Assembly (NCBI GenBank): GCA_000004985.1
Contig: GG738888.1
Length of the DNA: 64,000 nucleotides
Strand: one strand, 5' to 3'
Source of the DNA: Naegleria gruberi
Taxonomy: Eukaryota
Shown: piece by piece, positions 486-47,155 of the stretch
Layout: each line of letters begins with the position of its first letter
Position numbering within the stretch: position 1 is the first letter of the stretch
Notes under the pieces: generated by a model
Seen by the model: the letters and a program-made list of their open reading frames with translations, nothing else
What the model was told of the DNA's origin: nothing
The model's database searches: none
Program-made: the position numbers and the translations under genes

Positions 486-2066
486 TTAGAAAATATTATA
501 AACCTTATCTGATTTCTTTGCCTTTCTAGCGCATTCCAATCTCTTCTCTTCAGTCTTGACAATCTCCTGACAGAATGGTTTGTGAACTTTCCAATTGGAT
601 TTCATACACTCTACAGAACAATATCTTTCAATCTTGCATCCACCACAATAATGATTTGCTTTCTTTCCACAATTGGCACATTTAAAGTCGAATTTCAAAC
701 GACACTTTGCAGGATGAGACAGAATTGGATAGTTTGGCTTGAACAAGATAGCACCCTTAGTATTGAACAATGCATAAATAACTTGTTGAACGGAAACATC
801 GACGAGACCTCTATCTGTTCTGGCTATTTCAAGCTTCTCTAAAGTGTCACGTTTTTCTTCTTCTGAAGTGTCAGGAGAGAAACCAAATTTTACAGGTTTT
901 GGAAAGGTCATGCAACAAATCTTTTCAAAGTAAGCTTGTTGTTCCTTAATCCATTGAGCTGAAATAAATTGGTTGAAAATGATGAATATTTAGAATGTTA
1001 AACGACTTACCTTGAGCTGGGAAACATGGAATTCTTGAATTGATTGGTACATCTTGACACATCTCAGCAATAAGATTTGGAATTTGTGCAAATAACGAAT
1101 CAACAAAAATAAATTGGATCATATTTAACCAATCTTGGAAATTCTCATTCTTGTGCAAAGTTGTTCCAAACTCAAAGGCCAACTTGATACTTTGCATTCG
1201 TGTAAAATTCTCCTTGTATATTTCAACAATTTTCTCTCTAAACACGTATCTCCTTTCTTTGGTTCCTTTCATTAAAGTGCTTTCCAATTGTTCTGGAATG
1301 TCTTCATATTCTGCATTGATCATTTCCCAGCCTTTCTGAACTATTACAAGATTATGCTTGAATAATTCCATTGCAATTTTGTCTTTGGAGTTATTCTCAT
1401 AAGTTTTGGAACGCTTGGCTATTTCTTCTTGAATCATTTCTACTTTCTTTGATGAAATCTTCTTTTTGGCAAGTGATTGACTGGCATTGGCAGTTGTTTT
1501 TTCATGTTCTTTAGGAGAAAAAGCAGCTCTATACGAATCAAAAGTTGGATCCAAACGTTTTCTCATTTCATACGAGCCAGAAAAAATTATTTCATTATCA
1601 ACTTGATGCATGAGAATCTTTTTGAGATAAACGAGAGTGAAAATAGTGCACATCTTGTCCTGAGTTTCGGTTAATCTTGTTCCCTCAATAACTTCTCCCT
1701 CAATTTCATGAAATTGAACTGATAATTGCTTTCTCAATATGAAATTGCTGAGAAGATTACAGACGAAACAAAGCTTGTGTTGAGGAGAAAGATTATCGTA
1801 CATATTTCTGAAAACAGTGTTATGTGAAAAGAAGCCACTATATTCAACAAAGACTATTCACCAAGATGATTTACAACCTTATTCGAAACAAGTTTAAACT
1901 TACCTTCCTTTTCAGGATGAGAAACATTCAAATCTACAAAACGCTCCCAATCTCTAATAATTCGTGGAATCAACAATTTGAATAATTCACAATACTTTTC
2001 ATACATTGGCAATCTCTCCAAAGGAAATGCTATAACTTTACTACACAATTCGTCCCAATCATACAT
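486..2066 (-). CDS. MYND zinc-finger protein, 3 exons: complement(join(486..958,1011..1853,1904..~2066))
   Basis: The last exon carries a MYND-type Cys/His cluster, CANCGKKANHYCGGCKIERYCSVECMKSNWKVHKPFC. ORFs 1854..2135, 946..1803 and 486..911 join into one frame across two introns. One intron (959..1010) runs GTAAGT...TTTCAG. The other (about 1854..1903, 50 nt) runs GTAAGT...AATAG. The first in-frame ATG is at about 2066. Upstream of it the ORF starts with TTG. Confidence 0.6.
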
Positions 2067-2284
2067 TCCAGTCCTTTCGTATTTGGTTGTGTTGACATTT
2101 TTTTTTGGTTGTTTTTTCTTGAAACTAACTCTCAAAGGAGGAACATATTGGGCTAGGCTTGCGCGACAATATTGTAAACTAGGCTATTTTTTTCAAAGCC
2201 TTTGTTTTTCTGGGTTAGTTTCTATACAACAAGTTTAACAAGTTTGGTTGGTGGTTCGATTCCTGGCGCTGTTAACAATATTTT

Positions 2285-4342
2285 TTAATGATGATTTCCC
2301 ATTGTTAATGAATAATTCTTATTGAGTATCTTATTTGTGGTTGTATACATTTCAAAGCTTACCAAAGGGGAAGTAATGAATGGCAATAGATTCCTTCCTG
2401 CCTCTCCCTTCTCCAACACTTTAAATCTCAAATTTTCCATGGCTAGACTTGCCAAAAATGGTTCATTGGTGTTAAATTTTCCCAATCTCAATGTCATGTA
2501 AATGCATTTCATGTTATATCGACAAGATTCCAATAAAAATTCTTCATCTATGAATGGTGCTTTTGCTGCAAGTCCCAATACATTCACGTTAATGTCATGC
2601 AGTTTCAATGTTTCTCTTACAATGTCCTTATCCAATTTGTCAGGACAATCAGGGAGAGTATATCCATCGTATTTGACAACTTGTAACATGAAGCTTTTAT
2701 CAGCTTTCAATTCATCAGCAAGATAGTAGAAACAAAAATGTTTCGTTTTGGAAATTAGTTTGAGCATGAATTCCTTGTCTTTTGCTAGGTGTTTGAATTT
2801 TCTCGACTGTAATAAACTAGGTTGCTTTCTAATCATTAACTCAATGACATCAGGATCATCACTTAAACTACTATACTTGTCTAGGACAGAAATGGAATTA
2901 CTGGCTGCTAGTAAAATTAAATCTCTTTCGTTTTTCAAACCTTTGGACGCGTGGAAAATGGATTGACCATCTTGTTGAACTGCAATTGAAACTACCTCTC
3001 TGTCATTCTTGAGTTCAGCAGAAACATGTTTGAGAATTTCAGGATTGAATTTTAAGGCTTTCATTACAAAAGTTTTGTCAGATTTCAATTCTGAAGTTTT
3101 GATAATGTCAGCACTTTCTCTGATAGCTTGAATCATGATATCTTGATCAGTTTTCAATTCGTTTCGTATGAGAGAGAAAACCTTATTTGGTTTGACAATT
3201 TTTAACAATCTCAAAACGAAACTCTTATTCTGTTTCAACTCGTGTGGAATCTTGTCGAGCATTTTAGGAAATCTAGAAATGGCAGCAATGGAAACATCAT
3301 GATCTCTCTTCACTTCTTCAAAGGCCAATTCATAGGTATTATTGGAGGGATCACATTGTTGAATGGCATCCAGGAAGAACCTCTTATTCTTTTTCAAATC
3401 ATCAGTTAAATATTTGAGAATTGTTGTCTTTTTCTCTGAAATGAGATATTGTAAAATGACTCTTCCATCAGTTTTGAATTTTTCAGGAACCTTTAAATGT
3501 AAATTATTGAGATTATATGCATTTCTGGTAAATTCCAAATCATTTTGCATTGTTTCCTCTATTATTGTTGAATATGGACAGCATCCATGTTTAAATCCTT
3601 CTAATATAATGTAGGGATCCTTCTTTAATTCTGGAGATAATCTATTGAATAGATCTTTTGCACTTTCCAAATTAGGAGACCTCTTTCCCATAATTTTAAA
3701 AGTAAAAAGTGCAAATTCTCTATCATTAAAGAACTGAGATGGTATATGTATGAAAAGTTCAGGTAAATGAGATGAACGTTCGACTGCTTGATAAATTACA
3801 TCTCTATCATTTCTAAAAGTATCAGAAACTGACTCATAGATACAAACATTATTTCGAATACTATCCAAAATGAACTGTTTCTCCTTTAGAAAATGGTCTG
3901 GAATTCCAGCAAATAATTTTCCAAAACGCAACAAATGCAAAACCACATCCCTATCATTCTTCAACTCATCTGACAAGTACGGAAAACACTGTTCATGATG
4001 CACATTAGCAAGTACCAACTCCTTATTTGCTCTCCATTCCAGTGGTACTTTCGATATTGTTAAATCTCCCATGACCAAAGGTATTTTACAACCCCAATAT
4101 TTTCTTCCCTTATTACGTCTGACTAGAATGTTGATGAGATGAGTGTCTTTCAAAATGACATGTCCAAAATGTTCAATCATGATTGAATACTCTTCCGAGC
4201 TGAATGTTTTAAATAGAAAGGAATCGAATTGAAATTTAGTTTTTAACAAATGGGAAGATGGTGTAGAGTCGAGTAGAATTTTCACACAAGCACCGGGAAG
4301 TGAATTTTCAAGTTTTGGCAGCATTATCAAGAGTTGACTCAT
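2285..4342 (-). CDS. Protein of ~685 aa built from tandem ~35-40 aa helical repeats (DUF4116-like repeat protein)
   Basis: Single ORF with an ATG at 4342. It contains more than 12 copies of a repeat with consensus ELKNDR[ED]VVLxAVxxxGxALxxAS, for example ELKNDREVVSIAVQQDGQSIFHAS and ELKADKSFMLQVVKYDGYTL. The same repeat type is fused to a kinase at 16391..18911. Confidence 0.55.
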   Translation of the reverse strand: MSQLLIMLPKLENSLPGACVKILLDSTPSSHLLKTKFQFDSFLFKTFSSEEYSIMIEHFGHVILKDTHLINILVRRNKGRKYWGCKIPLVMGDLTISKVPLEWRANKELVLANVHHEQCFPYLSDELKNDRDVVLHLLRFGKLFAGIPDHFLKEKQFILDSIRNNVCIYESVSDTFRNDRDVIYQAVERSSHLPELFIHIPSQFFNDREFALFTFKIMGKRSPNLESAKDLFNRLSPELKKDPYIILEGFKHGCCPYSTIIEETMQNDLEFTRNAYNLNNLHLKVPEKFKTDGRVILQYLISEKKTTILKYLTDDLKKNKRFFLDAIQQCDPSNNTYELAFEEVKRDHDVSIAAISRFPKMLDKIPHELKQNKSFVLRLLKIVKPNKVFSLIRNELKTDQDIMIQAIRESADIIKTSELKSDKTFVMKALKFNPEILKHVSAELKNDREVVSIAVQQDGQSIFHASKGLKNERDLILLAASNSISVLDKYSSLSDDPDVIELMIRKQPSLLQSRKFKHLAKDKEFMLKLISKTKHFCFYYLADELKADKSFMLQVVKYDGYTLPDCPDKLDKDIVRETLKLHDINVNVLGLAAKAPFIDEEFLLESCRYNMKCIYMTLRLGKFNTNEPFLASLAMENLRFKVLEKGEAGRNLLPFITSPLVSFEMYTTTNKILNKNYSLTMGNHH

Positions 4343-5492: not shown

Positions 5493-8400
5493 CTATTGAC
5501 CTTCAATAATGAGTCTCGATTTTAGAGAGCTCAAAATGGTGCTTATTATGGTAAATGATGGACGTTGTTTTGGATCAGAATTCCAACATTGTGTCATTAA
5601 CTTGATGAACTCTCCAACAATATTTCTAAATCTTTCCTTGCATTGGTCTCGATCGAGTGGAACATCACTACTAGAAAAATCATACTCTTGCACATAGGAG
5701 CTCAAATAGGAATCCATTTCTGTATCATTGCTGAAGGGAATAACTGGTCGTTCTCCTTTTAGAACTCTTGGTAGCACTGTGAAGGGAGAAACTTCATTCT
5801 GTCTCGCTTGTGTAATCTTGGTGTTTTTTGTGTGAATGTATGGATTCTCCTCAAAGAATAATTCATACATGATGATCGCAAAACTGAAAACATCAATGGA
5901 TGGAGCTAGGGTGGAACTTGTATGAGATAGTTCAGAATCTAAAAGTTCTGGAGCTATATAGAATAAAGTGCCCATTCCTGTTGTGGTGTTTGTTTGGTTA
6001 TTACCATTCATTAGTCTACTCAATCCAAAATCGCAAACTTTTGCAGTATTATTCGAATCTAGAAGAATGTTTCCAGGTTTTAAATCTCTGTGAATAATTG
6101 GTGGTTTCAGACTGTGCAAATATTCCATTCCACATGCAACATCAATCAGAAGTGATAATTTAGAAATCAAGTCTAGAGAAATCTCACCCTTCCTACATTG
6201 ACTTATTAAATTCTCAATACTTCCCTTCTCCAAATACTCAACCACAAGATAGTGTTTTTTCGGAGTGATTGAAATTCCATAAAACATTAAAACGTTTGGA
6301 TGACGTAATTTGCACAATAGAGATGCCTCCTTTTCAATGTCATCTCTCAATGCATAATTTTCCACATCAACTCTTAAACATTTGATTGCAACAGTATTGT
6401 GATCCCAACGACCTTTAAAAACTACTCCAGATCCACCCTCTCCAATCTTCTTTTCTATAAACAGCTTATCCAATGTAATTATAAAAACAGCACCACTCTT
6501 TGAAGAACTATCATCACTATTTCTGAGATCTTCCTGTGCATCCACAATGTCATTTTCCAATAATCTCTTTTCAATGTCCTTTTCAGCACGTTCTCTACCC
6601 CTCCAATATCGAATAATTTTAGCTAATTTGTAAACTCCATATCCAACACCTGATAATATAATTAGCAAGCTACAAAATGCGAAAAAGGAAGCTACCACAG
6701 CAACGATAATGATGGACTCATAATTTGGCTTGACCTTACAGATAAATGATGATTCTGAACCATAAGTTGCTGGTGTTGATTCATAATCAACTGGACAAGG
6801 TATAATCTCCAATGGAATATCACTATTCGCATGAAAGAATGAGAGTGTGAGAGATGCCTTAATTGGTTGTGTGAATTGCCTCTCAGAAACTGTAATGAAA
6901 ATTCCCTCCACCACTTCAGAAACTCGTGTCTGTTTGGGAATGGTTGCAGTGATCGAGTCAGTACTCACTGAATTAGAATACACTTCCCACATGTACTCTA
7001 CTGAATTTCCAAAAGTGTCCTTGGATGTCGGTTTCAATGTAAATCTCTGTCCTGGAAAGAGAGTTACCACTCCATTCATTGGTTCAAAATCTCCACTCAA
7101 TTTTCCATTAATTTCTTTAGAGACTTGCCAAGTGATTTGTCTAATTGAGGATCCTATATTTCCACCATAGTTTAGAGCACTATTTCCAGTAAAGTTGCTC
7201 TGCAGAAATTCTTTCTTGACAATTTTGTGGAAGAAAATTCCTCCACCAGAGTAGTCAGCTTGATTATCCGAAATTTCCACATCTTCCCAAAGGCAAGCTA
7301 GAGTATCATATTTCAGGTTGAATGAAATTGCTCCTCCTCTCAATGCTCTGTTCATATGGAATTTGGAGGAATAAATTGCAAACTTGGTATGGAAACCTGT
7401 TCCCGTAAAACTCAAAGCACCTCCATTTCCAAGACATTTCGTTGAGGAGCACATTAAACTGGATGTGATGTTTTCAGTGAGTACTGAATTATTTACAAAG
7501 AGTGTTTCATAGGATGAGAAATTGCCTGAACAGAGTATAGCACCACCACTATTTTTTGCTGTATTTGATCGAAATACTGATTCTCCAATTGCTATATTCG
7601 AATCTATTCCACTAATGGCTCCTCCTCCTGCTGATGAATAATTTTCAATAAACTCTGAAAGGAATACGATGATATCACTCCCATAGGATGAGAGAGCTCC
7701 ACCAGTCTTACCATTTCTGTTTCTAATAAATTTCGAGGAGGTAACCAGAGTTTTGTGAGAGGAAAGTGAGCTGGACAATATAGCTCCTCCCAAGACAGAT
7801 ACGTTATCTGTGAAAGTAGATTCGACAATATAGGTTGCTACTACATTGCTCAACAGTAAAACTCCAGTAGAACCTCTATTATGGGCAAATATGCATCTTC
7901 TCACAATGACATTCCTCGAATTTCTAACAGTGACAATGCTTCCCTCTGTATTTTGACTTCCAACGAATTGACAATCTTGAAATTGGACCTCAATTGATTC
8001 TCCAATTGTTATAATATTTCCATTTGATTTGCCAAATATTGTGTGAGAAATTCTGACAACATTCGAGAAGAGAATATTCAAACTTCCATCATTAATTGTA
8101 CTCGTTTTCGTATTAACCAAGCAACCAATCATCACAATCTCCTTAACTTCCTCTATAAATACCAATTTGTCAATATTTATAGTCCCATTGAGGAACCACA
8201 TATTTGTGGCAGCCAATGTGAACTGATCTAGAAAGAAAGACAACTCAGACTCTGTAAATATCGAAATCTCTTCATATTTAAACTCAACTACAGGTCTCGA
8301 ATCATCAAAATCATATCTAACCTTCTTAAATAATGAAAGATGAGCGTCAGTTTCAAATTGTCCACTAATTTTCGAATTTTGCACAATGACATAATTTCCA

Positions 8401-9134
8401 AGAAATTTCCCACCTTTTAGTGTGCAATTTTCAATAAATGCATTTCGATTCTGTTGTAATATTTGCAAATTGAAACCCTTGAATATTGTAACTGCCTTAT
8501 CAAAGGTTTCTCCATAATCAATAAAATATGATTCACAATTAATTGTGGAATTGATCTTGCTTTCCAATTCGATGAATAGTTTGATATCACGCAATAAATT
8601 ATTTGTGGTTAATTCTTGAATTTTCAAATTGTTTTGACAATTATTCGAAACTATATCCGATTCCACATTAATTTTCATGTAAATGATGGCACCGGGACGT
8701 TCCACAGATGGAACATTTCCTATTTGATATTCAATTTCATTCGTAAAATAATTAATTAATTCCTTCATTGATGAAAAACTAATTGTTGAATTTAAAGTGG
8801 ACGAAACATTCGAAAAGGTATATTCGAAATCCAAAGATAAACAATTTACACTAAAAATTGATTCCTCCCGTTGTGTTTTACAAATTTCGTATTCCATCAC
8901 TTTCGAATATTGTGCCATATTTAATAATCTCGTAACCTCTACTTCTGCATTCGAATAGCCTTTATCCGCCGATAGAAATGAAGGTAGTTTATAATTGGTA
9001 TCAAATGGTGAAATGTAATCGGAAAGAGAATAATTAGAAATTGAAATTATATTCGAAGGTCCAATAACCACTAAAAGAAGCAAAATAAACACACTAGAAG
9101 GTGTCAGTGTTTCGTTTCTGTATATTGTAGTCAT
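5493..9134 (-). CDS. Single-pass receptor-like Ser/Thr protein kinase with a parallel beta-helix (PbH1/Pmp-like GGA-repeat) ectodomain; intronless, 1213 aa
   Basis: Signal peptide is MTTIYRNETLTPSSVFILLLLVVIGPSNIIS. The ectodomain has many GG[AG][AI] beta-helix repeats (GGAILSSS, GGALSSYG, GGGAISG, GGAILCSG, GGALSF, GGAISF, GGGIFF). A transmembrane helix IIIVAVVASFFAFCSLLIILSGVGYGVY follows. The cytoplasmic kinase has IGEGGSGVVFKG, VAIK, HRDLKPGNILL, DFG and GTLFYIAPE. Confidence 0.85.
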   Translation of the reverse strand: MTTIYRNETLTPSSVFILLLLVVIGPSNIISISNYSLSDYISPFDTNYKLPSFLSADKGYSNAEVEVTRLLNMAQYSKVMEYEICKTQREESIFSVNCLSLDFEYTFSNVSSTLNSTISFSSMKELINYFTNEIEYQIGNVPSVERPGAIIYMKINVESDIVSNNCQNNLKIQELTTNNLLRDIKLFIELESKINSTINCESYFIDYGETFDKAVTIFKGFNLQILQQNRNAFIENCTLKGGKFLGNYVIVQNSKISGQFETDAHLSLFKKVRYDFDDSRPVVEFKYEEISIFTESELSFFLDQFTLAATNMWFLNGTINIDKLVFIEEVKEIVMIGCLVNTKTSTINDGSLNILFSNVVRISHTIFGKSNGNIITIGESIEVQFQDCQFVGSQNTEGSIVTVRNSRNVIVRRCIFAHNRGSTGVLLLSNVVATYIVESTFTDNVSVLGGAILSSSLSSHKTLVTSSKFIRNRNGKTGGALSSYGSDIIVFLSEFIENYSSAGGGAISGIDSNIAIGESVFRSNTAKNSGGAILCSGNFSSYETLFVNNSVLTENITSSLMCSSTKCLGNGGALSFTGTGFHTKFAIYSSKFHMNRALRGGAISFNLKYDTLACLWEDVEISDNQADYSGGGIFFHKIVKKEFLQSNFTGNSALNYGGNIGSSIRQITWQVSKEINGKLSGDFEPMNGVVTLFPGQRFTLKPTSKDTFGNSVEYMWEVYSNSVSTDSITATIPKQTRVSEVVEGIFITVSERQFTQPIKASLTLSFFHANSDIPLEIIPCPVDYESTPATYGSESSFICKVKPNYESIIIVAVVASFFAFCSLLIILSGVGYGVYKLAKIIRYWRGRERAEKDIEKRLLENDIVDAQEDLRNSDDSSSKSGAVFIITLDKLFIEKKIGEGGSGVVFKGRWDHNTVAIKCLRVDVENYALRDDIEKEASLLCKLRHPNVLMFYGISITPKKHYLVVEYLEKGSIENLISQCRKGEISLDLISKLSLLIDVACGMEYLHSLKPPIIHRDLKPGNILLDSNNTAKVCDFGLSRLMNGNNQTNTTTGMGTLFYIAPELLDSELSHTSSTLAPSIDVFSFAIIMYELFFEENPYIHTKNTKITQARQNEVSPFTVLPRVLKGERPVIPFSNDTEMDSYLSSYVQEYDFSSSDVPLDRDQCKERFRNIVGEFIKLMTQCWNSDPKQRPSFTIISTILSSLKSRLIIEGQ

Positions 9135-16390: not shown

Positions 16391-18911
16391 TTATACAACT
16401 TGATTTGCTTGTTTGAGTTTTTCAATTTCTTGTTTGAGAAGTTCATTTTCATTTCTGAGTGTGGATATTTCATTACTCAAGAGTAAGTTTTCTTGTTTTA
16501 GGGTTGTGTTTTGTTGAATAATATCATAATAGTTGATTAATTGTTGAATATTGAGAAGATCATCCAGTTCCTTGTGAATATTTTCAGAATAATCATTAAT
16601 TTCACCACGGAGATATTTTGTTAAATTGTCGATAATAATCTTGTAAGTAAAGCAGTCCAATCTTTTACGAGGATCTCTTTGAATCATGGTGATGAGACAT
16701 CTGGTAAGTATTTCATTCACACCCCAAGATTTGTTAATCTGCTTATCAATGGTCATTCTTATGGCATGGTGCACTCTCATTTCTCCCTCAGCTGTTACAA
16801 CAGCGCTGTGAAAATATAATCCCTCCTCTGAACTAAAATATGTGAAATTCGAATCAAATTGTGAAATGTCAGTACCTCCAATAAATTGTTTGCTTACTTT
16901 CAACAAACAATCAGTCAATAATTCCAAAAATATACATCCTAATGAAAAGATATCTGATGCTGTTGAAATCTCCCTCTTGTTTTGAATTAATTTCTCCTGA
17001 TATTCATGAACTAAATGTTGTTCGTTGGATTTTTCATAGGTTGAATCTGAAACCTCTGGAGCCATATAAGTATACTTTCCCACATTGATTGTAATTGATT
17101 TTCCTACTTCAATAACTCTCGATTGATCAAAATCAATAATCTTAAACTTGTCACCAATTTTTAAAATATTATTAGGATCCAAATCTCTATTATAATTATA
17201 ATAATAATAAATATTAAAATAATTACCTATGTGCAATGTTTTGATTGTGAACTGATTGGACTGCCTGAAGGATTTTTGCAAACATTTCCAGTACCTCAAT
17301 CATTTTATCCTTTTCCAAGGATGTTCCAACTCCGCTGCTATGGTTTCTTTCTATAATATTTCTTAAAGTTTCTTCACCCAACTCCATGATGGAAAATAAA
17401 TGTTTCGTCTTAATCTTATCTTGACCATATTCCAGAATACCACATTCAAAACAATTAATCTTTCCATCAATTTGTCTCTTTAAGAATTCAATTTTAGCAT
17501 CCATCTTTTTCATGTCATACTCTGGTTGGAATTTAATCTTTACAGCAACAAAAACTTCTCTACGTTTATCAAAAGCTTTGAATACTACACCCTCACCTCC
17601 AAATCCTAAAGAAGAAATCAACTCGTAATTTTTAACTTTCTTCTGCGTAGTAAAAATTTGGAACGACGAAATGACCTTCTTACTGTCACCTGTTGTTTTC
17701 ATATACTCGCTTATCAGCATTTTCCAATCCCAGTTTGGATTTTCATGTTTCAAAATTCGCTTAATAAGAAATACAATTCCAGGGTGTTCCTTTTTCGAAT
17801 AGTGGTGATAGGGAAAATCGTCGACTATCGTCTTTAGAGCTTCCTTAAAGTGTTTTTTACCAACAGGATGTTTAGGTGACTTGGATTCTATATGTTGTTC
17901 CAACTTTATGCAAAATAAGTGGTAATCCAAATCCGCAATTGTTTCAGTTTCAATTTTCAAACTACTTTCGTTCAGTTTCTTCAAAATCATCAGCATGGCA
18001 AATGTTTGCACAAATTTCACACTATAGGTAAATGAAGAAAATATTCCTTTTGAAATAATTTCAGGTTTCTTATCTTGAAAAAGAAAAGGAATCAATCCAC
18101 TCTCATCCAAAGTCTCCTCCTTAAATGCATTCATTACTGTTTTTAAATTTCCGTGGAATATAATCAATTTATCTGCCTTACAAGGATTTCCCTTTGGCAA
18201 ATATTTGAAAACTCTATAATTCAAAGCTACAGCCTCCAACACAACTTGTCGATCAGTCTTTAATTCCTCAGAAGCAAACATGAATGAGAAAGGCTCATGT
18301 TGAATGGCCATAAACACAACTTCCTTATCCCTTCTCAATTCTTCAGAGGCACTTTTGAAAGCAATTCTATCACTCTTCAAAGCTAACATGACAATTTCCC
18401 TATCATTTCGAAATTCATCTGAAATGTCCTGAATAGCACCAGGAGCACTCTGAATGGCTGCCATGACAACTTCCCTGTCCTTCTTCAATTCATCCCCGAC
18501 CAAAAACAACTCCGAAGCTGCTGCATTATTTTGATTATCCTCTTTTTCATGATTTTGTTGTGAATGATGATGCTGATGATTTTTAAAAGCAGGTGCCGAT
18601 GAAGAATTCTCATCAATTCGTTTTTTAGTCAAAGCCGCCAAAACTACTTGTTTATCGTGGCGCCATTTTTCTGAAATTAATTTCAATGAAAAATCAAATT
18701 TTACAGCTGCGTATTGTAGTATGAAATTTCTATCCAATTCTTCCCGCGCTTTTTCAGAGCTTATCTGCAAGACTTGAGCTGATTTACTCTTTTCCAAGGC
18801 TTGGAGAAGAAAGTCACGATCATTCCGAAGTTCGTCTGGTAGTTTGGCATAATTATATGAGGTTGGATTTTGGATAATATCTTTCAGGTAGCGTTCTCTA
18901 CCTGGAGCCAT
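16391..18911 (-). CDS. Protein kinase with N-terminal DUF4116-like tandem repeats; complement(join(16391..17186,17227..18911))
   Basis: ATG at 18911. N-terminal repeats include ELRNDRDFLLQALEKS, ELKKDREVVMAAIQSAPGAIQDIS, EFRNDREIVMLALKSD, ELRRDKEVVFMAIQ and ELKTDRQVVLEAV. The kinase has a G-loop LGFGGEGVVF and VAVK. The catalytic loop HR|DLDPNNIL is split by a 40-nt intron (GTAATT...AATAG) between the R codon's AG and A. DFD replaces DFG (IIDFDQS). APE is MAPE. The C-terminus is a coiled coil (LKQENLLLSNEISTLRNENELLKQEIEKLKQ). Confidence 0.8.
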
Positions 18912-21037: not shown

Positions 21038-22762
21038 ATGAAAAGAACAACTACACAGGAATCTTCGGAAGAAGCACTCTCAGAGCAATCATCATCCAAA
21101 AAGCTAAAACTTGATCAAAATTGTCAGCTTGGTCTTTATTCCTTGCACTCAGATATCAAACTTTACATTTTAGAATTTATTCAATTTTTTCTTTCTCGTC
21201 ACTTGATAGTTTCTGAATTTGATGAGCATTCGTTAGAGCTTGAACATGTTGATGTTTCATCGAAGGAGAAATTGTGGGAACATACCAAGGTGATGGCTAG
21301 GAGACAATTGTTAAAGTTAATGTTTGGTTATTTCGTGGATGAAAGTAGACGAATTCATCTCCTATTCAAGCATGTGAATTTTTGTGCAAGTGGTATTTTT
21401 CATCAACATGAGTTGTTCACAGAGTTGAGATTTAGAGATTTGAAATCAATTGAGTATTCGAGAAATTACTTGTTTTCAAGTAAATATTTTGATTTTAAAG
21501 AGTATTTGCCGAGATTGGAAGCTGTTTGGGGATTAAATATTGAAGTAGAAGAGGATGCAAAGAGTTTTCTTGCTCATGATTTGAGTAGAATGAAATCTGT
21601 TTCTTTTGGTTACCTCGAGAAAGATGTTTGTGTACCAGAATCTATTGGATTTGAAACTTTCTTTTCCAAATTGACCAATCTTACCACTCTCGAACTGTCT
21701 TGTGGTTATATTGATGAAGAGTTTGTTTTTGCCCTGATGAAAAGCGTAAAACATTTGAGAAAGGCCACATTCACAGAGGCCACCTTGAACAATGATGCCT
21801 TACAAATGTTATTGGAACAAGCAGAGTTTTTGGAGGAGTTGGATGTTAGCATGCCAAATGATTCCTTCGATCTTGATTATATATTTGATAGAGTCAAGAG
21901 GCCACTCAAGCTTACTAAACTTTTTGCTGAGAGTAATGATGTTACAGAAAAATTCTTTGTAAATATTGTAAAGGCAGCAAAATACCTTGGTAATTTGAAA
22001 GTTTTATCAATCTCACCTTATATGATCAATGATGAAGAACTTTGGAAAAATTTATTTAATAGCTTCCCTCAATTGACTGAGCTGGAACTAAGCGATCAAA
22101 CTTTAACAGAGTCAATCATGTCACATATTCATGTATTGAAAGAATTACGCTCTCTGAAATCGAATTTAGAAACCACCAAAGGTCTTGAACTTCTTCTCCA
22201 TTTCAAGTCACTCACTCTCTCATGCTTGACTAGAGAAACTAATTTGGATTTCTCCAAGCTGAACCATTTGGAATTTCTTGCCATTGATGCCTTGTACAAT
22301 ACCATATTGGACAATTTCGATAAGGATGAAAGCTTACCAAAGTTAAAGAGAGTCAAACTTTACCTTATTAATGATGTTGAACGCACTATTGATGAAGTTA
22401 AACAAATTGCAGAAAAAAGGCCTGAAATTAGATTTTCCTTGATATTGCATGAAGGTGTAACTCCAGTCGATATCTTTGAGAGAATTCTTTCCTGTAAAGG
22501 AATTGATGAATTGGATAGTTTTAATGCAAAAATTCCAGATGCCATTGAAACTAACTCCACCCTTAAATCCTTAACTATACTTAACGCGAAATCATTAGCT
22601 AATTTGGAACTTTTACAAAACAACAAGACTTTGGAAGTATTGAATCTCTATTCAGCGGATATTTTTGAAGGTGAATATGTGAGTGAAATTTGTAATTTAT
22701 TCCGTAACTCACAAGCTGAGCATATTTCACTTATTGATCCATCTATTGTTGGTGAACCATAA
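21038..22762 (+). CDS. F-box-like / leucine-rich repeat protein, 574 aa
   Basis: Start context is aaaaATGAAAAG. The N-terminus has YSLHSDIKLYILEFIQFFLSRHL, which is F-box-like. Repeated L-rich segments follow (LTTLELSCGY, LKVLSISPYMINDEELWKNL, LTELELSDQTL, LEFLAIDAL). Confidence 0.5.
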   Translation: MKRTTTQESSEEALSEQSSSKKLKLDQNCQLGLYSLHSDIKLYILEFIQFFLSRHLIVSEFDEHSLELEHVDVSSKEKLWEHTKVMARRQLLKLMFGYFVDESRRIHLLFKHVNFCASGIFHQHELFTELRFRDLKSIEYSRNYLFSSKYFDFKEYLPRLEAVWGLNIEVEEDAKSFLAHDLSRMKSVSFGYLEKDVCVPESIGFETFFSKLTNLTTLELSCGYIDEEFVFALMKSVKHLRKATFTEATLNNDALQMLLEQAEFLEELDVSMPNDSFDLDYIFDRVKRPLKLTKLFAESNDVTEKFFVNIVKAAKYLGNLKVLSISPYMINDEELWKNLFNSFPQLTELELSDQTLTESIMSHIHVLKELRSLKSNLETTKGLELLLHFKSLTLSCLTRETNLDFSKLNHLEFLAIDALYNTILDNFDKDESLPKLKRVKLYLINDVERTIDEVKQIAEKRPEIRFSLILHEGVTPVDIFERILSCKGIDELDSFNAKIPDAIETNSTLKSLTILNAKSLANLELLQNNKTLEVLNLYSADIFEGEYVSEICNLFRNSQAEHISLIDPSIVGEP

Positions 22763-31787: not shown

Positions 31788-32206
31788 TTTTTCTTCTCAA
31801 GTAAATCTGTTAGTTGAAACATCATCTTTCTTCATCATCATTTAAAATAGTTAACTTTAGAGTTTCGGAAAAGCATTCTAGATTTGATATCATTTTCAAG
31901 CTTGCTTTTTGGCGCCATTTTTTATTTTAAAAAATATTAAAAAAAATACAAAACATTCAAAGCCTTAATTTTTTTTCATTTTTCATTTAAGGTGCAAAGA
32001 AGAAGAAGTTTTCTCTCTCGGGATGGAGACAGTATTAATTCTGTTTTTATTAGATAAATTTAATTGTTGTCAATGGTTAAAATAGTTGAATCAGGTGTGG
32101 AAGGAAAAATATCCTTGAACGGGCTTGCTTTGGAAAAACAATTTCAAATGTCAGTTCTAACAGCGAACAATAGGAGATGTCATTTCAAAAAAATTAATTA
32201 GATTTG

Positions 32207-34549
32207 ATGAAGTTGGTACAACGGGAGACTTATTGGTTTGCAGTGATGCAATTGATTCTACTAACATTTCTGTTAAAAATTGTTATTGCAGATTCGAATA
32301 TTATTACTACAGTTTCGGATATTAACCAATTTAAAAAGTTACCATCCTCTATTACTATTGTGAACATTCCCTCTTATTATCATGTATTCATAAACATGAT
32401 GGCATCTCTTGCCTCTGTTAATGGAACGAACCCTAGGCCGAAAGATATTATCAATAGATGGCAAGAATCAGGTTCATATTGTGTTTTAACACGCGATTTC
32501 AATAATTTAGAGCCGAGCAAATCGTCCTTCAACTTACCTGATTCCCTATCGAACAGTACAACATTTAAGCAAGTTGGGGTAGACAATATTCCTGTGGAAA
32601 TTGCACATTACTCTTACTCAATTCTTGAAAATGCTCCTTCTCTTGTGATAACACCTCCAGAAGTTTTGAGTAGATGGTTGTTGATTTTGAAAAATTCAGT
32701 GTTTGAAAAGCAAGTAAGGTTGTCCTTATGGAATAGTACATTTAGTGATTCATTTACAATATTCCCCTTGTATGAAAGTCCGTCTTCCATTAGCTATGTG
32801 CAATTGGATGAGGTAGTAAATGCAAAGGATATAATAGTGAGCGAACTAGAAGAATTAATATCAAACGATTTGGAAAAATTCAAGAAATATTATGAAATTA
32901 ATATTGAGGAAGGAAAGGGATTGGGATATTCACCTATTCTTCAATATCAAACTTGTAATTCTTCATTTTCTAATTCTACACAAGTATTGGAGTATCACTT
33001 AGCTCTATTTAGGATTGATTTTTATTTGAATTTGATTTTAAGGAATAAGGATGTGATTAGTGTTGGAGCATTTACACAAGATGGGAAATACAAAACACAA
33101 ATCAAATTCATGGATGAAAGTGTCAGAAGCATTGATTATGCCTACTTAATTCAAGCCATTAGAAACATGCTTATTATTGGAAAGTTTGACTTGTATCTAT
33201 CCTTTTCTAATAATACAGCAACATTCTCTTTGGAGTACTACCAAAATTTAGAAAAGAAGGATTTGAAATCTATTTATCTGTTAATGGTCCACCCTGTTTG
33301 CTTTAGTTTTTACTTTGACTATGCAGATATTTACTATTTTAAAGATGGGCTATTCTTTCCAATTATTGTAAATGATGTTATTTACTTTGGCATTGCACTT
33401 TTTGGAATAATTCTATATCTTGCCAATATTGTGAGTTATCTGTTCAACTTTTTGCTGTTCATTAAGAAGAGAATTCTCTTGCCAATTATTGGACCTCCTT
33501 CTCTGATTGTTTTGAGCTTGTTTTTCACAATCTTAATCAGATCTAAACTTGCATCCGCTGGTTATTGGATTCAAATGATTATTGTTTTCTTCCCAGCTCC
33601 AGTATTAATTGGTAGTTATTTGGTGTGCCTGTATAGATTTGCCTACTTGAAGAATATTGATCTGTGCCACAAATATTGTTGTGAATCACTTAGGTTACAC
33701 AGATGTTTGACTTCTTCTCCACTTGCTGTTTTGTTTTCATTGATTTCAACTGTAGTTTGTTTCATAATTTGTCTCGTGCCAATAATTGCTGCAAGCGTTG
33801 CTCTAGCCTACTCATTCCTCAACCTCCCCCAGGAGATATTCATTACCATGTTTGCTATTGAAGTGATTTTCATATTGGTATGTGCTGGAATATTCTTCGT
33901 TGCTGATTTGGTTAGTAGTGGATTCAAAACCATTCGTAAGAAGGGAATTTCGTACTACCTCTTCTTTGACGATCCCATGGGATATAGAATTGATTTAATA
34001 TTGATGGTTGTTATGTTGATTTCAGTAATTCCAATAATTGCTGGCTCAGTTCAAGATACGACTTCATTCTTTGTGGTGAGAAAGATTGTCTCAATTATAT
34101 ATTTTGCCTTGTTTTATTTTGTTATTGGAGGAACTGTGACATTATCTTATTGGATTAATAGATTGAGAAATTTCAATGTGAAATCAGATTCAACCCAATT
34201 GGAAATTTACTTACGAGATGATGAATTCAGAAAGATCTTTAGAACGTATTGTGCTAATGAATATTCCACAGAAAATTTTATAATTTATGAAGATTTGGAA
34301 AACTTGGATGTGAAAGGAAAATGTACCGAGGAAGAAGTGAAAGAATTTCATCTCAAATACATGACCTCAACTTCTCAATTCGAAGTGAACTTTCCCTCCT
34401 TTGTGAAAAAACGATTTGAGGAAATTTTAGAACAATTAGAATCTCAAACCATCTCCAAACCAACGTCTCCATCAACAGCAAGTGTCAGCACCAACAATTT
34501 ATTGGAATCAGAATCAGTTTTTCTCACTACCAGTGCCATGGTACACTAA
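32207..34549 (+). CDS. 7-8 TM membrane protein with a large N-terminal ectodomain and a C-terminal RGS domain (receptor-RGS fusion)
   Basis: ATG at 32207 (the track ORF starts 3 nt earlier at TTG). Signal peptide is MKLVQRETYWFAVMQLILLTFLLKIVIADS. The ectodomain is about 380 aa with many N-x-S/T sites. Seven or eight hydrophobic helices occupy residues about 390-650. The C-terminus is an RGS fold (EFRKIFRTYCANEYSTENFIIYEDLENLD...KEFHLKYM). Confidence 0.65.
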   Translation: MKLVQRETYWFAVMQLILLTFLLKIVIADSNIITTVSDINQFKKLPSSITIVNIPSYYHVFINMMASLASVNGTNPRPKDIINRWQESGSYCVLTRDFNNLEPSKSSFNLPDSLSNSTTFKQVGVDNIPVEIAHYSYSILENAPSLVITPPEVLSRWLLILKNSVFEKQVRLSLWNSTFSDSFTIFPLYESPSSISYVQLDEVVNAKDIIVSELEELISNDLEKFKKYYEINIEEGKGLGYSPILQYQTCNSSFSNSTQVLEYHLALFRIDFYLNLILRNKDVISVGAFTQDGKYKTQIKFMDESVRSIDYAYLIQAIRNMLIIGKFDLYLSFSNNTATFSLEYYQNLEKKDLKSIYLLMVHPVCFSFYFDYADIYYFKDGLFFPIIVNDVIYFGIALFGIILYLANIVSYLFNFLLFIKKRILLPIIGPPSLIVLSLFFTILIRSKLASAGYWIQMIIVFFPAPVLIGSYLVCLYRFAYLKNIDLCHKYCCESLRLHRCLTSSPLAVLFSLISTVVCFIICLVPIIAASVALAYSFLNLPQEIFITMFAIEVIFILVCAGIFFVADLVSSGFKTIRKKGISYYLFFDDPMGYRIDLILMVVMLISVIPIIAGSVQDTTSFFVVRKIVSIIYFALFYFVIGGTVTLSYWINRLRNFNVKSDSTQLEIYLRDDEFRKIFRTYCANEYSTENFIIYEDLENLDVKGKCTEEEVKEFHLKYMTSTSQFEVNFPSFVKKRFEEILEQLESQTISKPTSPSTASVSTNNLLESESVFLTTSAMVH

Positions 34550-40955: not shown

Positions 40956-43900
40956 TTATTCGAAACGTTCCAACATTAATTCCAACTTGGTCAAAATTTC
41001 ATCAATGGTTGGTCTTTCTTTTGGATCTTTTCTCCATGCCCGTTTAATTAATTCTGTAATTTCATAAATTATTTCATAACAGTTAACATGTGAATTATTC
41101 GTTTCAGACAGGAATTCCCCACACCACTCTCTACATTCACCAATATCTGAGAATGGAATTATTGGTCTCAGATCTCCCTCACAGATACTCTTATGGAAAT
41201 GGTAAGTACTATTAAATGTATTTGCTTTTGATAACTTTAACTTTTTTAGAACTTTTGAATCGGTACTTTGATAAGGTTCCATAATTTCGAATAAAAGTTG
41301 CCACATAATTATGGACAAACTATAGATATCTATTGATCTAGCATCATCTCTTCCAATTTCACCTGAAAATAGCTCAGGACTCATGTAATTAAAAGTTCCA
41401 ATTTGTGAAGTAACTGCTGACATGGTATGAGAAGAGAATGCTCTTCCTAAACCAAAATCAGCCAATTTGGCAGTTCCATTTTTATCCAACAGAATATTTG
41501 CAGGTTTCAAATCTCTAAATAAAATTAAATTATGTTAATCCTCTTCTTAGAAAACTTACCTGTGAACAATATAATTTGGTTCCAAATGATGAAGATAATT
41601 AATACCACTTGCGACATTGACCAAAATCTCAAGTTTTTGTTTCAACGAACACTTTAAATAACCTCTTTGCAAAGAAGCAATTAAATTTTCCAAACTCTTA
41701 TCCATACATTCCATACATATAAATCTCTTTGTTGGGGTGGATGAAACTCCGTAAAATGAAATAATATTGGGATTTCTTAAATTGCTTAATAGAATTGCCT
41801 CATTCTTGAAATCATTTTCTGAAATATCCATATTATTCAAATCGAATACTTTGACAGCAACTAACATGCCATGGTATCTGGTTTGGAAAACACATCCAAT
41901 TCCTCCTTCTCCCAGTCTCTGAATAGGTTGATAATATTCAGCAATATTTGAAAACTTACTCTTATTGGTTTATCCATATTTAATTGCTCAATTGGAATTA
42001 TAAACTTATTCTCCTCATCAGAGCTATGATGTGAATCAATATTTGTAGAATCGTACAATTCAGTTTGTGTCAGTAATCTTTCGTCCAATTTGAGATCAGT
42101 ATTAATAATCCTTTTGTATTTTTTGAAAATGAAAATCAAGATGATTGAAATAATTGAGATAATTACTGTAAAGAATCCAACCAATCCAAGTACTACTCCT
42201 AACACTATAATATTACTTTCACAATTCTCTCCATTGAATCCTTCTTTACATTGACAAGTATTGTATTTAACACATTTTCCATTTTCACTACATGCCTTTG
42301 ATCCAGATTCTCCAAAACAAATTGGAATTTCACAATTAGATCCCTTGTATCCATTCTTACATTCACAAACATTTGGTGAAATACATGAACCATTCGAAGA
42401 ACAAACACTTGATTGATCACTTGAGATGCCAAAACATATTGGTACTTTACATTCCATTCCACTATATGCTGAGCTACATTCACACTTGTTAAAATTAATA
42501 CATGTTCCATTTCCATAATTGCAAGAGTGACTCTCATTGGCAGCTTTTCCAAAACACACTGGAATGCACTCGACCATATTCGTACTGAGAATGAAACCTT
42601 CCTGACAATAGGGCTTCATCTTTTGTATAATGTTAAGTTTGGAATCTGCAACATAAATTTCTCCCTTTCCATCATTCGAGAATGAAATTCCTTCTGGAAT
42701 TCCCAATGAAACATCATTTGCTGGTGATTCCTTTAATGAATAAGAAGATCCTTTTCCACCTCCAGCTATTGTTGAAATTATTCCATTTCGAATTCGTCTA
42801 ATACGATAGTTTTTAGAATCTGAAAAGACAATGTCTTCGTATGGAGAAATAATTTTCAAATAAGTGGGTGAATTAATTTGTGCCTTAATTGCCAAATCCT
42901 CATCTCCAGAAAAGCCTGCAATTCCATTTCCCGCCAAGGTTGATATAGTGCCATTTTTGTGAATAACTCTGATTCTGTGATTATTTGTATCTGAAAATAT
43001 GAGATTTCCTGTCGATTCTGAATAAACAATGCCTGAAGGATATGCTAAGGATGCTTGTGTAGCATAAATATTATCCAAGTTAAACCCATAGCCTCCATTT
43101 CCAGCTATTGTCGAAATAATTCCATTTCTAATTAATCTTATTAAATTGTTTTTCACATCTGTCAAGTAAATATCATTATTTGGAGCAACAGAGATACCAA
43201 GACAGTTTCCAATAGCATTTTCTGAAGGACCAAAGTCGCCAATTCCTCCTGCTAATGAATGAATGACATTGTTACCTGGATAATAAACTCTTAATCTATC
43301 ATTTCTATTGTCAGAAATTAGTACACGTTCTATTCCTCCTTCATCAACATACGAATGTACAAACACTGGCCCATTTAGTTTTGCCACAAGCGCATTTCCT
43401 CCATCTCCCTCTAAACCTGGAAACCCTGTTTGGCCTACCACAGTTCTAATAGTGAAATCACTTATTGAAATTGCTCTAATTTTGTTATTGAAAGTATCTA
43501 AAGTTCGATAATTATTAGAACACAAAGTCAAAGACAAAACCTACCTGCAATATAGATGGCTGTAACTCCAAAACTAATACTGTGAGGATAGAATAACTCA
43601 CTGTTAATTGCTGGTCCCTCATCACCTCCACTTCCATCAACACTTGATCCTGCAATAGTTTTCACAATGAAATTGGGAATTAATAATCTTATTCTATGGT
43701 TGAACGTATCTGCAACTAATATTCCCATTGTAACCGTAAAAACCACGTCCATTGGTGAGTTGAGTTGGGTTTCCAGTAGTAATTTACCATCACCATTAAA
43801 ACCTGGTATGCCTGTACCAGCAAAAGTTTTAACAGATTTGGTAGTTATTGAAATGGACCTTATCATGTGATTTCCTGAATCGGCAACATAGACATGTCCA

Positions 43901-45958: not shown

Positions 45959-47155
45959 TTAATTCAAGATGCATTTCTTTTCTTTTTTTAAACTATTTAA
46001 ATATTTAATATCTTTTTCAATCACTTGTTGTAATATTGAATTTAAATTTGTTTGATTACCAAACCTAATTAACTTAACACCTTCTAGAAATGCATTTTCT
46101 ATACCCTCACCAGTTTTAGCACTACAAATAACTATATTTGTATTTGTTAGTTGATACTCATTAATAATATTAATAATTTCATTTTTCAATTTATCAATTT
46201 CATTGTTATCAGTAATTAAATCCATCTTATTTAATGCAAATATAATTGGAATATCTTCTGAATCTCTGATTCTAATTAATTGTTCAACTAAGGTCTTACA
46301 GAATTCAGCTGAGGAAAAATTAAATAAATCGCAAACATTGATAAAACAATCACCAGTTCTCATATATTGATCTATTCATATTAAATTATTGAGATATTCA
46401 AATCAACTTACCCCTATCAAATTAAATGATAAACAATCACATTTCACAACTTACCTCATAGCTGAGTATTCCTCTTGTCCATCTAATTAAATTAATTAGG
46501 ATTATCAAGTTTAATAATTCAATAAATGAAAATACTAACATGTATCTAATATATCAAGTTCAAACACCCTTCCATCAAATTCAATATTTCTTCTATAATC
46601 ATCATAATAACTTGGATCATATTGATCTGTATATCTATTCTGAATAAATCTAACCACAATCGATGATTTGCCTTATATCAAATATAATTACAATAAAAAT
46701 TAGATGAATAACATACCAACACCACCATCACCTATCATTACAAATTTAAGGTAATTGTCAGTAAAATCTAAATATTTAAATTGTTTATATTTAATATATA
46801 AAGTTAACAAAACAATCCTTTTTAAATTTGTTTTTTTAATTATTTGTTCCTTAATTATTTCATTATTCACTTTTATTGGTAAATAATTTTTCAATAACTC
46901 AAAATAAAATTCATTAAAATAATCACATTGATCATCATCGTACATTAATTTTTTACAACTTGTTTGAAAATTTAATAATTGTTTAATTTTAGTTGTATAT
47001 TTAATATTATAAGAATAACTAGTATCAAGAACATATGATAATATATTTAAATGTATTTCCAAGGGTAAATTAACGAACGTATTTTCATTATTGAATGATC
47101 GCATTTTTTTTAATTTAATTAATAATAACAAAAGTTCATCAAAGTAATCTTGCAA
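45959..47155 (-). CDS. F-box-like N-terminus + canonical Ras-family small GTPase; >=4 introns (exons ~46717..47155, 46540..46671, 46455..46482, [46412..46413?], 45959..46371)
   Basis: The N-terminus NLPLEIHLNILSYVLDTSYSYNIKYTTKIKQLLNFQTSCKKL is F-box-like. G1 GDGGVG|KSS is split by a 45-nt GTATGT intron. The G2/G3 region is [37 protein letters not shown]. The last exon has DQYMRTGDCF..., then G4 FALNKMDL and G5 CSAKTGEG. Confidence 0.7.

What the first reader, a model, noticed from the sequence alone, without database searches (positions are those of the whole stretch)
17187..17226. Identical intron position and phase (HR|D of the catalytic loop, AG|A) in two kinases with unrelated N-terminal architectures; the third paralog is intronless
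In the DUF4116-repeat kinase (intron 17187..17226, 40 nt) the intron interrupts the catalytic-loop arginine codon after AG (cat ag|gtaatt...tag|a gat). In the NHL receptor kinase (intron 41515..41559, 45 nt) the same happens (cac ag|gtaagt...tag|a gat). Same position and same phase imply that an ancestral intron was inherited before domain shuffling. The closest paralog of the NHL kinase (5493..9134) has lost it, or was retroposed. This is a useful marker for reconstructing the kinase family's history in this genome.
Basis: seen in the sequence. Interest (0 to 1): 0.5.

Follow-up and report, generated by a model that had tools for sequence, protein, structure and literature searches.

The report
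Shared catalytic-loop intron in Naegleria kinases
Two Naegleria gruberi protein-kinase genes really do carry a short intron at the same spot in the catalytic-loop HRD motif, but that spot also holds an intron in kinases from humans to malaria parasites, so the finding is ordinary and of little use for tracing this genome's kinase history.

Summary
On the minus strand, 17226..17187 (40 nt) and 41559..41515 (45 nt) are GT-AG introns. Each splits the Arg codon of the HRD motif after its second base (cat ag|a gat; cac ag|a gat). Splicing them out reproduces the public Naegleria gruberi proteins EFC41087.1 and EFC41092.1 exactly. The third kinase (EFC41083.1, 9134..5493) is one uninterrupted ORF.

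Among relatives of the NHL receptor kinase, this intron and a second one show a mosaic pattern (both, either or neither). That indicates an ancestral intron with repeated loss. In the DUF4116-kinase family, all six other kinase domains I could test lack it.

The position is not specific to these two genes. Published data place a phase-2 intron at this site in human ABL1, chicken FES, mouse PKN, Plasmodium PKA and Toxoplasma PK1. My metagenome scan found it in CDPK-, AMPK/MARK-, PKA- and TBK1-type genes.

It is therefore either a very old kinase-domain intron or a recurrent AG|A insertion site. Either way it is a weak marker. The intronless gene shows no sign of being a retrocopy. Interest is low.

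The parts
17187..17226 (-). Intron of gene A (DUF4116-repeat kinase). It is 40 nt, GTAATT...ATAG, 5% G+C, and phase 2 inside the Arg codon of HRD (cat ag|...|a gat).
   Evidence: Sequence read. The spliced product is an exact match to EFC41087.1. Unspliced, the frame reads agg taa.
16391..18911 (-). Gene A CDS: exons 18911..17227 and 17186..16391, 826 aa. It has five DUF4116 repeats plus a divergent protein-kinase domain (HRDLDPNN, DFD).
41515..41559 (-). Intron 3 of gene B (NHL/EGF receptor kinase). It is 45 nt, GTAAGT...TTAG, and phase 2 inside the Arg codon of HRD (cac ag|...|a gat).
   Evidence: The spliced product is an exact match to EFC41092.1. The same intron is present in L001 and L002.
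41919..41959 (-). Intron 2 of gene B. It is 41 nt, phase 0, and lies between PIR and RLGEGG, just before the glycine loop. The relative L003 shares it; L002 and L004 do not.
43498..43544 (-). Intron 1 of gene B. It is 47 nt, phase 1, and lies inside an NHL repeat (IYIA|DTFNNKIR).
40956..45720 (-). Gene B CDS (4 exons, 1543 aa): signal peptide, NHL/teneurin-like beta-propeller repeats, EGF repeats, a transmembrane segment and a TKL-like kinase.
5493..9134 (-). Gene C: an intronless 1213-aa receptor kinase with Chlam_PMP repeats, a transmembrane segment and a TKL-like kinase. The HRD codons cac aga gat at 6092..6084 are uninterrupted.
   Evidence: There is no poly(A) tract downstream.

Best explanation
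Both features are ordinary U2-type GT-AG spliceosomal introns of 40 and 45 nt. Each must be removed to join the N-lobe exon, which ends ...H + AG, to the exon that supplies the last base of the Arg codon and the catalytic Asp (A GAT ...). Unspliced transcripts stop at 'agg taa' and would encode a truncated protein without the catalytic Asp.

The site they occupy is phase 2 in the Arg codon of the H/Y-R-D catalytic-loop motif. Kinases of several eukaryotic protein kinase groups in at least three eukaryotic supergroups have an intron there.

The most likely history is that an old intron of the kinase domain was inherited by many paralogous lineages and then lost again and again. Loss would occur through the usual routes of recombination with cDNA or genomic deletion. 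Naegleria genes A and B would then be two survivors, and gene C and many relatives would have lost the intron.

What is shown: the introns are real, their position and phase are identical, the intron is ancestral with differential loss inside the NHL receptor-kinase family, and the position occurs widely elsewhere.

What is inferred: that A's intron and B's intron are copies by descent rather than independent insertions.
For: Reality and identity of position. The spliced models are exact matches to the public proteins.

Ancestral state with loss in the B family: L001 has cac ag|gtatgt..(52 nt)..aatag|a gat. L002 has cat ag|gtatgt..(49 nt)..aaatag|a gat. L003 and L004 read HRDLKP without interruption. 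The phase-0 intron before RLGEGG is present in B and L003 and absent in L002 and L004. The tree is (C-,((B+,L001+),(L004-,(L002+,L003-)))).

Wide occurrence: the metagenome scan gave about 19 truly spliced H/Y/F-R|D phase-2 introns among 74 loci. Labelled examples are a CDPK, TBK1, AMPK/MARK and PKA.

Literature: de Roos 2007 (PMC1800838) lists CIH|RDL for chicken fps and T. gondii PK1, and IVY|RDL for mouse PKN and P. falciparum PKA, all phase 2, as conserved cross-kingdom splice sites. Human ABL1 exon 7 starts at c.1086, the third base of codon 362, and its HRD is His361-Arg362-Asp363 (PMC8457809; PMC12348835).

Priors: 30-50% of N. gruberi intron positions are shared with other supergroups (PMC3174169). 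34.8% of LECA introns in paralogous Pfam groups are shared between pre-LECA paralogs, against about 5% for separately acquired genes, where sharing must reflect parallel gain (PMC9120149).
Against: In the A family only A itself is known to carry the intron. N. lovaniensis P0141 is intronless. Both kinase domains of P0136 are uninterrupted. The environmental DUF4116-kinase L006 has a different intron (phase 1, near the APE motif). P0143 and P0145 are uninterrupted ORFs. The closer N. gruberi paralogs could not be examined.

The Arg codon is AGA in all three window kinases, so an AG|A protosplice-like site is always available at this invariant motif.

Two sampled green-lineage TKL kinases lack the intron. 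The Fragaria gene is intronless, and the Chlamydomonas schloesseri gene has a phase-0 intron 5 nt downstream, with a CGT Arg codon.

The A and B intron sequences share nothing beyond splice signals, though none would be expected after this much time.

I could not read how the de Roos tables assign the split residue. The ABL1 case is independent of that table.
Confidence: 0.55

Rival explanations
1. Parallel gain. The introns of A and of the NHL-RK lineage were inserted independently at the same nucleotide. The invariant H-R-D motif, encoded CAY AGA GAY in this AT-rich genome, always offers an AG|A (for B, CAG|A) protosplice-like target. On this view the wide occurrence of the position in other kinases reflects a recurrent hot spot.
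For: A is the only one of seven tested A-family kinase domains with the intron. All three window kinases use AGA for this Arg. The chance of coincidence rises to about 0.05 if insertion is limited to AG|R sites. The Chlamydomonas homolog has a CGT Arg codon and no intron at this site. Parallel gain is documented at about 5% of shared positions (PMC9120149).
Against: Within the B family the pattern is best read as loss, not gain. Published estimates put parallel gain well below inheritance for positions shared between paralogs. A's junction is TAG|A, which does not fit the MAG|R consensus. There is no sign of a recent, repeated intron element.
Confidence: 0.33
2. A relatively recent Naegleria kinase carrying this intron duplicated, the copies acquired different N-terminal modules by domain shuffling, and gene C, the closest paralog of B, lost the intron or arose as a retrocopy.
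For: Position and phase are identical. C is entirely intronless while B has three introns.
Against: A and B are only 22-30% identical and fall in separate, deep clades. A is not TKL-like. C is 37-39% identical to B, has a different ectodomain (Chlam_PMP rather than NHL/EGF), and has no poly(A) remnant. Relatives much closer to B exist, at 51-67% identity. The same position is found in animal and apicomplexan kinases.
Confidence: 0.07
3. Artefact. The two segments are not spliced, and the genes are pseudogenes or the models are wrong.
Against: Canonical GT...AG ends restore the HRD motif and an open frame through DFG/DFD, APE and the whole C-lobe. The models equal the public annotation. The same intron is conserved in L001 and L002, with conserved flanking coding sequence but a diverged intron sequence and length.
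Confidence: 0.03

Closest known systems
Conserved kinase-domain splice site H/Y|R-D, phase 2 (de Roos 2007, Biol Direct 2:7, supplementary conserved sets); human ABL1 intron 6 (exon 7 = c.1086_1270)
   Same: The codon is the same (Arg of the catalytic-loop HRD/YRD motif) and the phase is the same (2). The site is listed for chicken FES with T. gondii PK1 and for mouse PKN with P. falciparum PKA. ABL1 exon 7 begins at the third base of Arg362 in His361-Arg362-Asp363.
   Different: Those genes are animal and apicomplexan TK, AGC and CAMK-like kinases. Here the hosts are a heterolobosean TKL-like receptor kinase and a Naegleria-specific DUF4116 kinase. Whether the introns are related by descent is not established. 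I could not read how the 2007 table assigns the split residue.
Paralogous (pre-duplication) introns shared between ancient paralogs, with differential loss (Vosseberg et al. 2022; Csuros et al. 2011)
   Same: An intron position is shared between distant paralogs of one Pfam family (PF00069). There is a mosaic presence/absence pattern among close relatives, and Naegleria is known to retain many ancient positions.
   Different: I could not confirm that this specific position is among their reconstructed LECA introns. PF00069 does not appear in the supplementary files held.
Protosplice-site model of intron insertion (MAG|R)
   Same: B's exon junction is CAG|A, and the Arg codon AGA offers AG|A at an invariant motif.
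   Different: A's junction is TAG|A. No evidence of recent insertion was found: no repeated intron copies and no similarity to flanking exons.

Membership tests
U2-type GT-AG spliceosomal intron | A GT at the 5' end and an AG at the 3' end, with removal restoring a continuous, conserved reading frame | tested here: met
   A: GTAATT...ATAG. B: GTAAGT...TTAG. The spliced products keep HRD, DFD/DFG and APE in frame and equal the public proteins.
U2-type GT-AG spliceosomal intron | Splice junctions observed in transcripts | not testable with these tools
   No RNA-seq or EST data were accessible. Support is indirect: an exact match to the annotated models and conservation in L001 and L002.
Conserved kinase catalytic-loop intron position (H/Y-R|D, phase 2) | The intron lies after the second base of the Arg codon of the HRD/YRD motif | tested here: met
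   cat ag|a gat (A) and cac ag|a gat (B). The kinase-domain alignment puts both at the same column.
Conserved kinase catalytic-loop intron position (H/Y-R|D, phase 2) | The same position occurs in kinases of other groups and supergroups | tested here: met
   Environmental CDPK, AMPK/MARK, PKA and TBK1 genes. FES, PKN, PfPKA and TgPK1 in PMC1800838. Human ABL1.
Conserved kinase catalytic-loop intron position (H/Y-R|D, phase 2) | The introns are related by descent rather than by parallel insertion | tested here: inconclusive
   The B family shows an ancestral intron with loss. In the A family, 6 of 7 tested domains lack it and the close paralogs could not be tested.
TKL-group protein kinases | The kinase domain is most similar to TKL members (Raf/CTR1, IRAK, RIPK, MLK/TAK1, plant RLKs) | tested here: met
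   For B, the best solved relatives are CTR1, SOBIR1, CERK1, TNNI3K, IRAK4, RIPK2, TAK1 and BRAF. C is 37% identical to B. C was not searched separately.
TKL-group protein kinases | The same criterion applied to gene A | tested here: not met
   A's best solved relatives are TTK, a MAP kinase and CDKs, at only about 1e-11. A belongs to a small Naegleria-specific subfamily.
Processed retrogene (for gene C) | Intronless copy of an intron-bearing parent, with high similarity to the parent and a poly(A) remnant | tested here: not met
   C is intronless. However, it is only 37-39% identical to B in the kinase domain, has a different ectodomain, and has no A-rich tract after the stop codon. Target-site duplications were not searched.
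Introner-like or recently propagated intron | Sequence similarity among introns, or multiple copies | tested here: not met
   The local alignment score of the A and B intron cores is reached by 213 of 500 shuffles. No 16-mer of A's intron recurs in the window.

The most novel reading that the evidence does not exclude
The Naegleria introns are direct relics of an intron that already split the Arg codon of the HRD motif in the ancestral eukaryotic protein-kinase gene, before the kinase groups (TK/TKL, AGC, CAMK, IKK-related, and the Naegleria-specific DUF4116 kinases) diverged, that is, before LECA. Naegleria (Discoba) would then add an independent supergroup witness, alongside animals and alveolates, to a pre-duplication intron in one of the largest eukaryotic gene families.
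Probability: 0.5. Interest if true: 0.3.

Novelty: already known. Interest (0 to 1): 0.15.

Why it matters
It matters little by itself. Both introns are in the public N. gruberi gene models. The position is already on record as a conserved kinase splice site. Shared positions between old paralogs, with repeated loss, are a well-described pattern.

The modest value is as one more data point. A discoban lineage keeps this catalytic-loop intron in two very different kinases. Close relatives show loss in progress, with the two kinase-domain introns lost independently. That is relevant to studies of pre-LECA introns and of intron loss in Heterolobosea.

As a marker for reconstructing the kinase family in this genome it is unreliable, because presence and absence are highly homoplastic.

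Tried and rejected
(1) Word-indexed protein searches gave only four close relatives for the B kinase domain, none for the A kinase domain, and mostly DUF4116 proteins for an A-family alignment. None returned N. gruberi paralogs. The exhaustive search was needed to find the A family.

(2) Fetching DNA for A's N. gruberi paralogs failed. EFC37438 and EFC46766 are 'not on record', so the most informative gene structures remain untested. N. lovaniensis genes could be fetched.

(3) L005 (617 nt, coverage about 1) was too short and too noisy to use.

(4) In the metagenome pattern scan, about 45 of the 74 loci were uninterrupted kinase genes with a chance AGGTAWNT upstream, and about 10 could not be classified. 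I had underestimated this noise, so every hit was re-examined.

(5) Two PDB searches returned nothing because my E-value thresholds were too strict. I repeated them.

(6) Retroposition of gene C is rejected: no poly(A) tract, low identity to B, and a different ectodomain.

(7) An introner or recently copied intron is rejected.

(8) Two green-lineage TKL kinases were checked for the position. Both were negative, but the sample is too small to weigh much.

(9) The literature searches for 'subdomain VIb' intron positions and for the Arabidopsis CDPK-SnRK paper found nothing usable. The Trichomonas intron paper was not relevant. PF00069 positions are not in the held supplements of Vosseberg 2022.
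Full report
**What is there**

The window is part of a 351,708-bp Naegleria gruberi scaffold. It is about 33% G+C, gene-dense and uses the standard genetic code. It contains exactly three protein-kinase domains, all on the minus strand.

- Gene A (18911..16391) has five DUF4116 repeats and a kinase domain.
- Gene B (45720..40956) is a receptor kinase with NHL/teneurin-like repeats, EGF repeats and a transmembrane segment.
- Gene C (9134..5493) is a receptor kinase with Chlam_PMP repeats. It is not an NHL protein.

**Checking the observation**

Read on the minus strand, gene A has ...att gca cat ag|GTAATTATTTTAATATTTATTATTATTATAATTATAATAG|a gat ttg gat cct aat aat. That places a 40-nt intron at 17226..17187. 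Gene B has ...att gtt cac ag|GTAAGT...TTTATTTAG|a gat ttg aaa cct gca aat. That places a 45-nt intron at 41559..41515.

Both introns split the Arg codon of the catalytic-loop HRD motif after its second base (phase 2). Unspliced, both genes read 'agg taa' and stop. A's 40 nt would also shift the frame.

Splicing gives an 826-aa product for A. Together with two further introns in B (43544..43498, phase 1; 41959..41919, phase 0), it gives a 1543-aa product for B. Both are letter-for-letter identical to the public models EFC41087.1 and EFC41092.1. Gene C is a single 1213-aa ORF identical to EFC41083.1, with 'cac aga gat' uninterrupted. No transcript data were available.

**Is it more than chance?**

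Each kinase-domain CDS is about 900 nt and holds 37-49 AG|R sites. Gene A has one intron in the domain and gene B has two in or at its edge. An independent coincidence at the same nucleotide has P of about 0.002 under uniform insertion, and about 0.04-0.05 if insertion is restricted to AG|R sites. The match therefore calls for a biological explanation: either shared ancestry or a preferred insertion site.

**How related are the three kinases?**

By BLASTP, the B and C kinase domains are 37% identical (E = 4e-64). A and B are 30% identical over 181 residues (E = 4e-13). A and C are 23% identical. In a trimmed alignment A is 22-26% identical to all B-type domains.

Against solved structures, B is closest to TKL kinases: CTR1, SOBIR1, CERK1, TNNI3K, IRAK4, RIPK2, TAK1 and BRAF. 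A matches only weakly (about 1e-11), to TTK, a MAP kinase and CDKs.

An exhaustive search shows that A belongs to a small Naegleria-specific subfamily. It has six N. gruberi paralogs at 36-63% identity, two N. lovaniensis genes and a few environmental sequences. Several of these also carry DUF4116 repeats.

'Two kinases with unrelated N-terminal architectures' is therefore true. But the kinase domains themselves are also only distantly related, and A is not TKL-like.

**The B lineage: ancestral intron, repeated loss**

Four environmental relatives with the same NHL/EGF, transmembrane and kinase architecture were recovered with DNA.

| Gene or locus | Identity to B | H-R\|D intron | Phase-0 intron before RLGEGG |
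|---|---|---|---|
| B | – | yes (45 nt) | yes |
| L001 (likely ortholog) | 66-67% | yes: cac ag\|gtatgt...aatag\|a gat, 52 nt | unknown (contig starts inside the kinase domain) |
| L002 | 46-52% | yes: cat ag\|gtatgt...aaatag\|a gat, 49 nt | no |
| L003 (63% identical to L002, same sample) | 54-55% | no, reads HRDLKP without a break | yes |
| L004 | 51% | no | no |
| C | 37-39% | no | no |

The distance tree is (C,((B,L001),(L004,(L002,L003)))). Two different introns, each present in some members and absent in others, is the classic signature of an intron-richer ancestor with independent losses.

**The A lineage: only A is known to have it**

- N. lovaniensis P0141 is an intronless gene.
- N. 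lovaniensis P0136 has DUF4116 repeats and two kinase domains. Its only intron is a 47-nt intron after codon 7, and both catalytic loops are uninterrupted.
- The environmental DUF4116-kinase on L006 reads FSHRDLKLAN without a break. It has a different, phase-1 intron near the APE motif.
- P0143 and P0145 are uninterrupted ORFs through HRD.

The closer N. gruberi paralogs could not be fetched. That makes 1 of 7 tested domains with the intron.

**The position is not private to A and B**

A pattern written for the junction (AG|GTAWNT, a 33-63-nt intron, AG|A GAY TTR RAN CCN NNN AAY AT) finds only the two introns in the window, with none in 100 shuffles. In the metagenome collection it hit 74 loci.

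Re-examination showed that about 45 of these are uninterrupted kinase genes with a chance upstream match. About 10 could not be classified. About 19 are truly spliced H/Y/F-R|D phase-2 introns, in contigs of 24-57% G+C.

Labelled against solved structures, these include:

- a calcium-dependent protein kinase (L029, E = 2.7e-109)
- TBK1 (L068, E = 2.5e-126)
- an AMPK/MARK-type kinase (L041 and L013, E = 2.8e-61)
- PKA (L037, E = 2.5e-41)

The literature already records the site. The supplementary conserved-splice-site sets of de Roos 2007 (PMC1800838) list chicken fps ('ESKHCIH|RDLAARN') with Toxoplasma PK1 ('SKNIVH|RDLKLEN'). They also list mouse PKN ('HKIVY|RDLKLDN') with Plasmodium falciparum PKA ('LNIVY|RDLKPEN'). 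All four are phase 2. The paper notes three conserved splice sites within 30 residues of the Ser/Thr kinase domain. I could not read how that table assigns the split residue.

Human ABL1 gives independent confirmation. Its exon 7 is c.1086_1270 (PMC8457809), and its HRD motif is His361-Arg362-Asp363 (PMC12348835). So c.1086 is the third base of codon 362, which means a phase-2 intron in the HRD arginine codon.

Two green-lineage TKL homologs that I sampled do not have it. The Fragaria gene is intronless. The Chlamydomonas schloesseri gene has a phase-0 intron 5 nt downstream and a CGT Arg codon.

**Interpretation**

Two explanations remain.

(a) Inheritance. An old intron of the kinase domain passed to many paralogous lineages and was frequently lost. 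Published priors favour this. Between 30 and 50% of N. gruberi intron positions are shared with other supergroups (PMC3174169). Also, 34.8% of reconstructed LECA introns in paralogous Pfam groups are shared between pre-LECA paralogs, against about 5% for separately acquired genes, where sharing must be parallel gain (PMC9120149). The B-family data show directly that loss is frequent.

(b) Parallel insertion. The invariant motif is encoded CAY AGA GAY, so an AG|A site is always on offer. A is alone in its family among the tested members, and the Chlamydomonas gene with a CGT codon lacks the intron.

I rate (a) at about 0.55 and (b) at about 0.33. If inherited, the character predates the divergence of kinase groups and says nothing specific about A and B or about when their N-terminal modules were attached. 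In both cases presence and absence are strongly homoplastic.

**Gene C**

C is the closest paralog of B only within this window. It is 37-39% identical in the kinase domain and carries a different ectodomain, and relatives far closer to B exist. It has no A-rich tract after its stop codon. Nothing suggests a retrocopy. From my own recollection of the genome paper (Fritz-Laylin et al. 2010, not re-read here), most N. gruberi genes lack introns, so an intronless gene needs no special explanation.

**The intron sequences**

The A and B intron sequences show no similarity beyond the splice signals: 213 of 500 shuffles reach the observed score. A's intron does not recur elsewhere in the window. There is therefore no evidence for a recently propagated intron element.

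**Verdict**

The feature is an ordinary spliceosomal intron at an already documented, widely shared kinase intron position. It is present in the public annotation. Interest is low.

Noticed in passing
window 16391..18911 (-), catalytic loop near 17231..17160; alignment A1: Gene A and its N. gruberi paralogs have HRDLDPxNI in place of HRDLKPxN. The catalytic-loop Lys is replaced by Asp, and DFG is replaced by DFD (one paralog each has FET or FNT). The N. lovaniensis and environmental relatives keep K in the loop. The subfamily may therefore have unusual catalytic properties or be partly inactive.
   Followed up: partly
window 2285..4342 (-): This is a second DUF4116-repeat gene (685 aa, at least 4 repeats, E = 1.4e-56) with no kinase domain. 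It lies about 12 kb from gene A on the same strand.
   Followed up: no
window 41919..41959 (-); L003 about 1658..1708: B's phase-0 intron immediately before the glycine loop (PIR|RLGEGG) is conserved at the same place in the environmental relative L003 (PIK|RLGEGG). It is absent in L002 and L004, so it has been lost independently of the HRD intron.
   Followed up: yes
L008 3001..6290 (N. lovaniensis PYSW02000023.1): This N. lovaniensis A-family member (KAG2382743.1) carries DUF4116 repeats followed by two tandem kinase domains. It has only one intron, of 47 nt, after codon 7.
   Followed up: partly
L006 1088..3516 (JGI 3300022665): This environmental DUF4116-kinase of the A family has a phase-1 intron near the APE motif (TYL|PPE) in place of the HRD intron. 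There is also an unexplained frame change between the DUF4116 ORF and the kinase ORF at about 2478..2497.
   Followed up: partly
L083 about 2099..3075 (Chlamydomonas schloesseri): This TKL homolog has a phase-0 intron between L and K of HRDL|KPGN, 5 nt downstream of the Naegleria position, and its Arg codon is CGT. It is one more of several distinct intron positions clustered in the catalytic loop (compare).
   Followed up: partly
window 46001..48000: This 2-kb bin has the lowest G+C in the window (0.259, against about 0.33 elsewhere) and contains no large ORF apart from a 151-aa one.
   Followed up: no
window 21038..22762 (+), 32204..34549 (+), 59109..63257 (-): Three large ORFs (574, 781 and 1382 aa) have no Pfam match at E <= 1e-5.
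   Followed up: no
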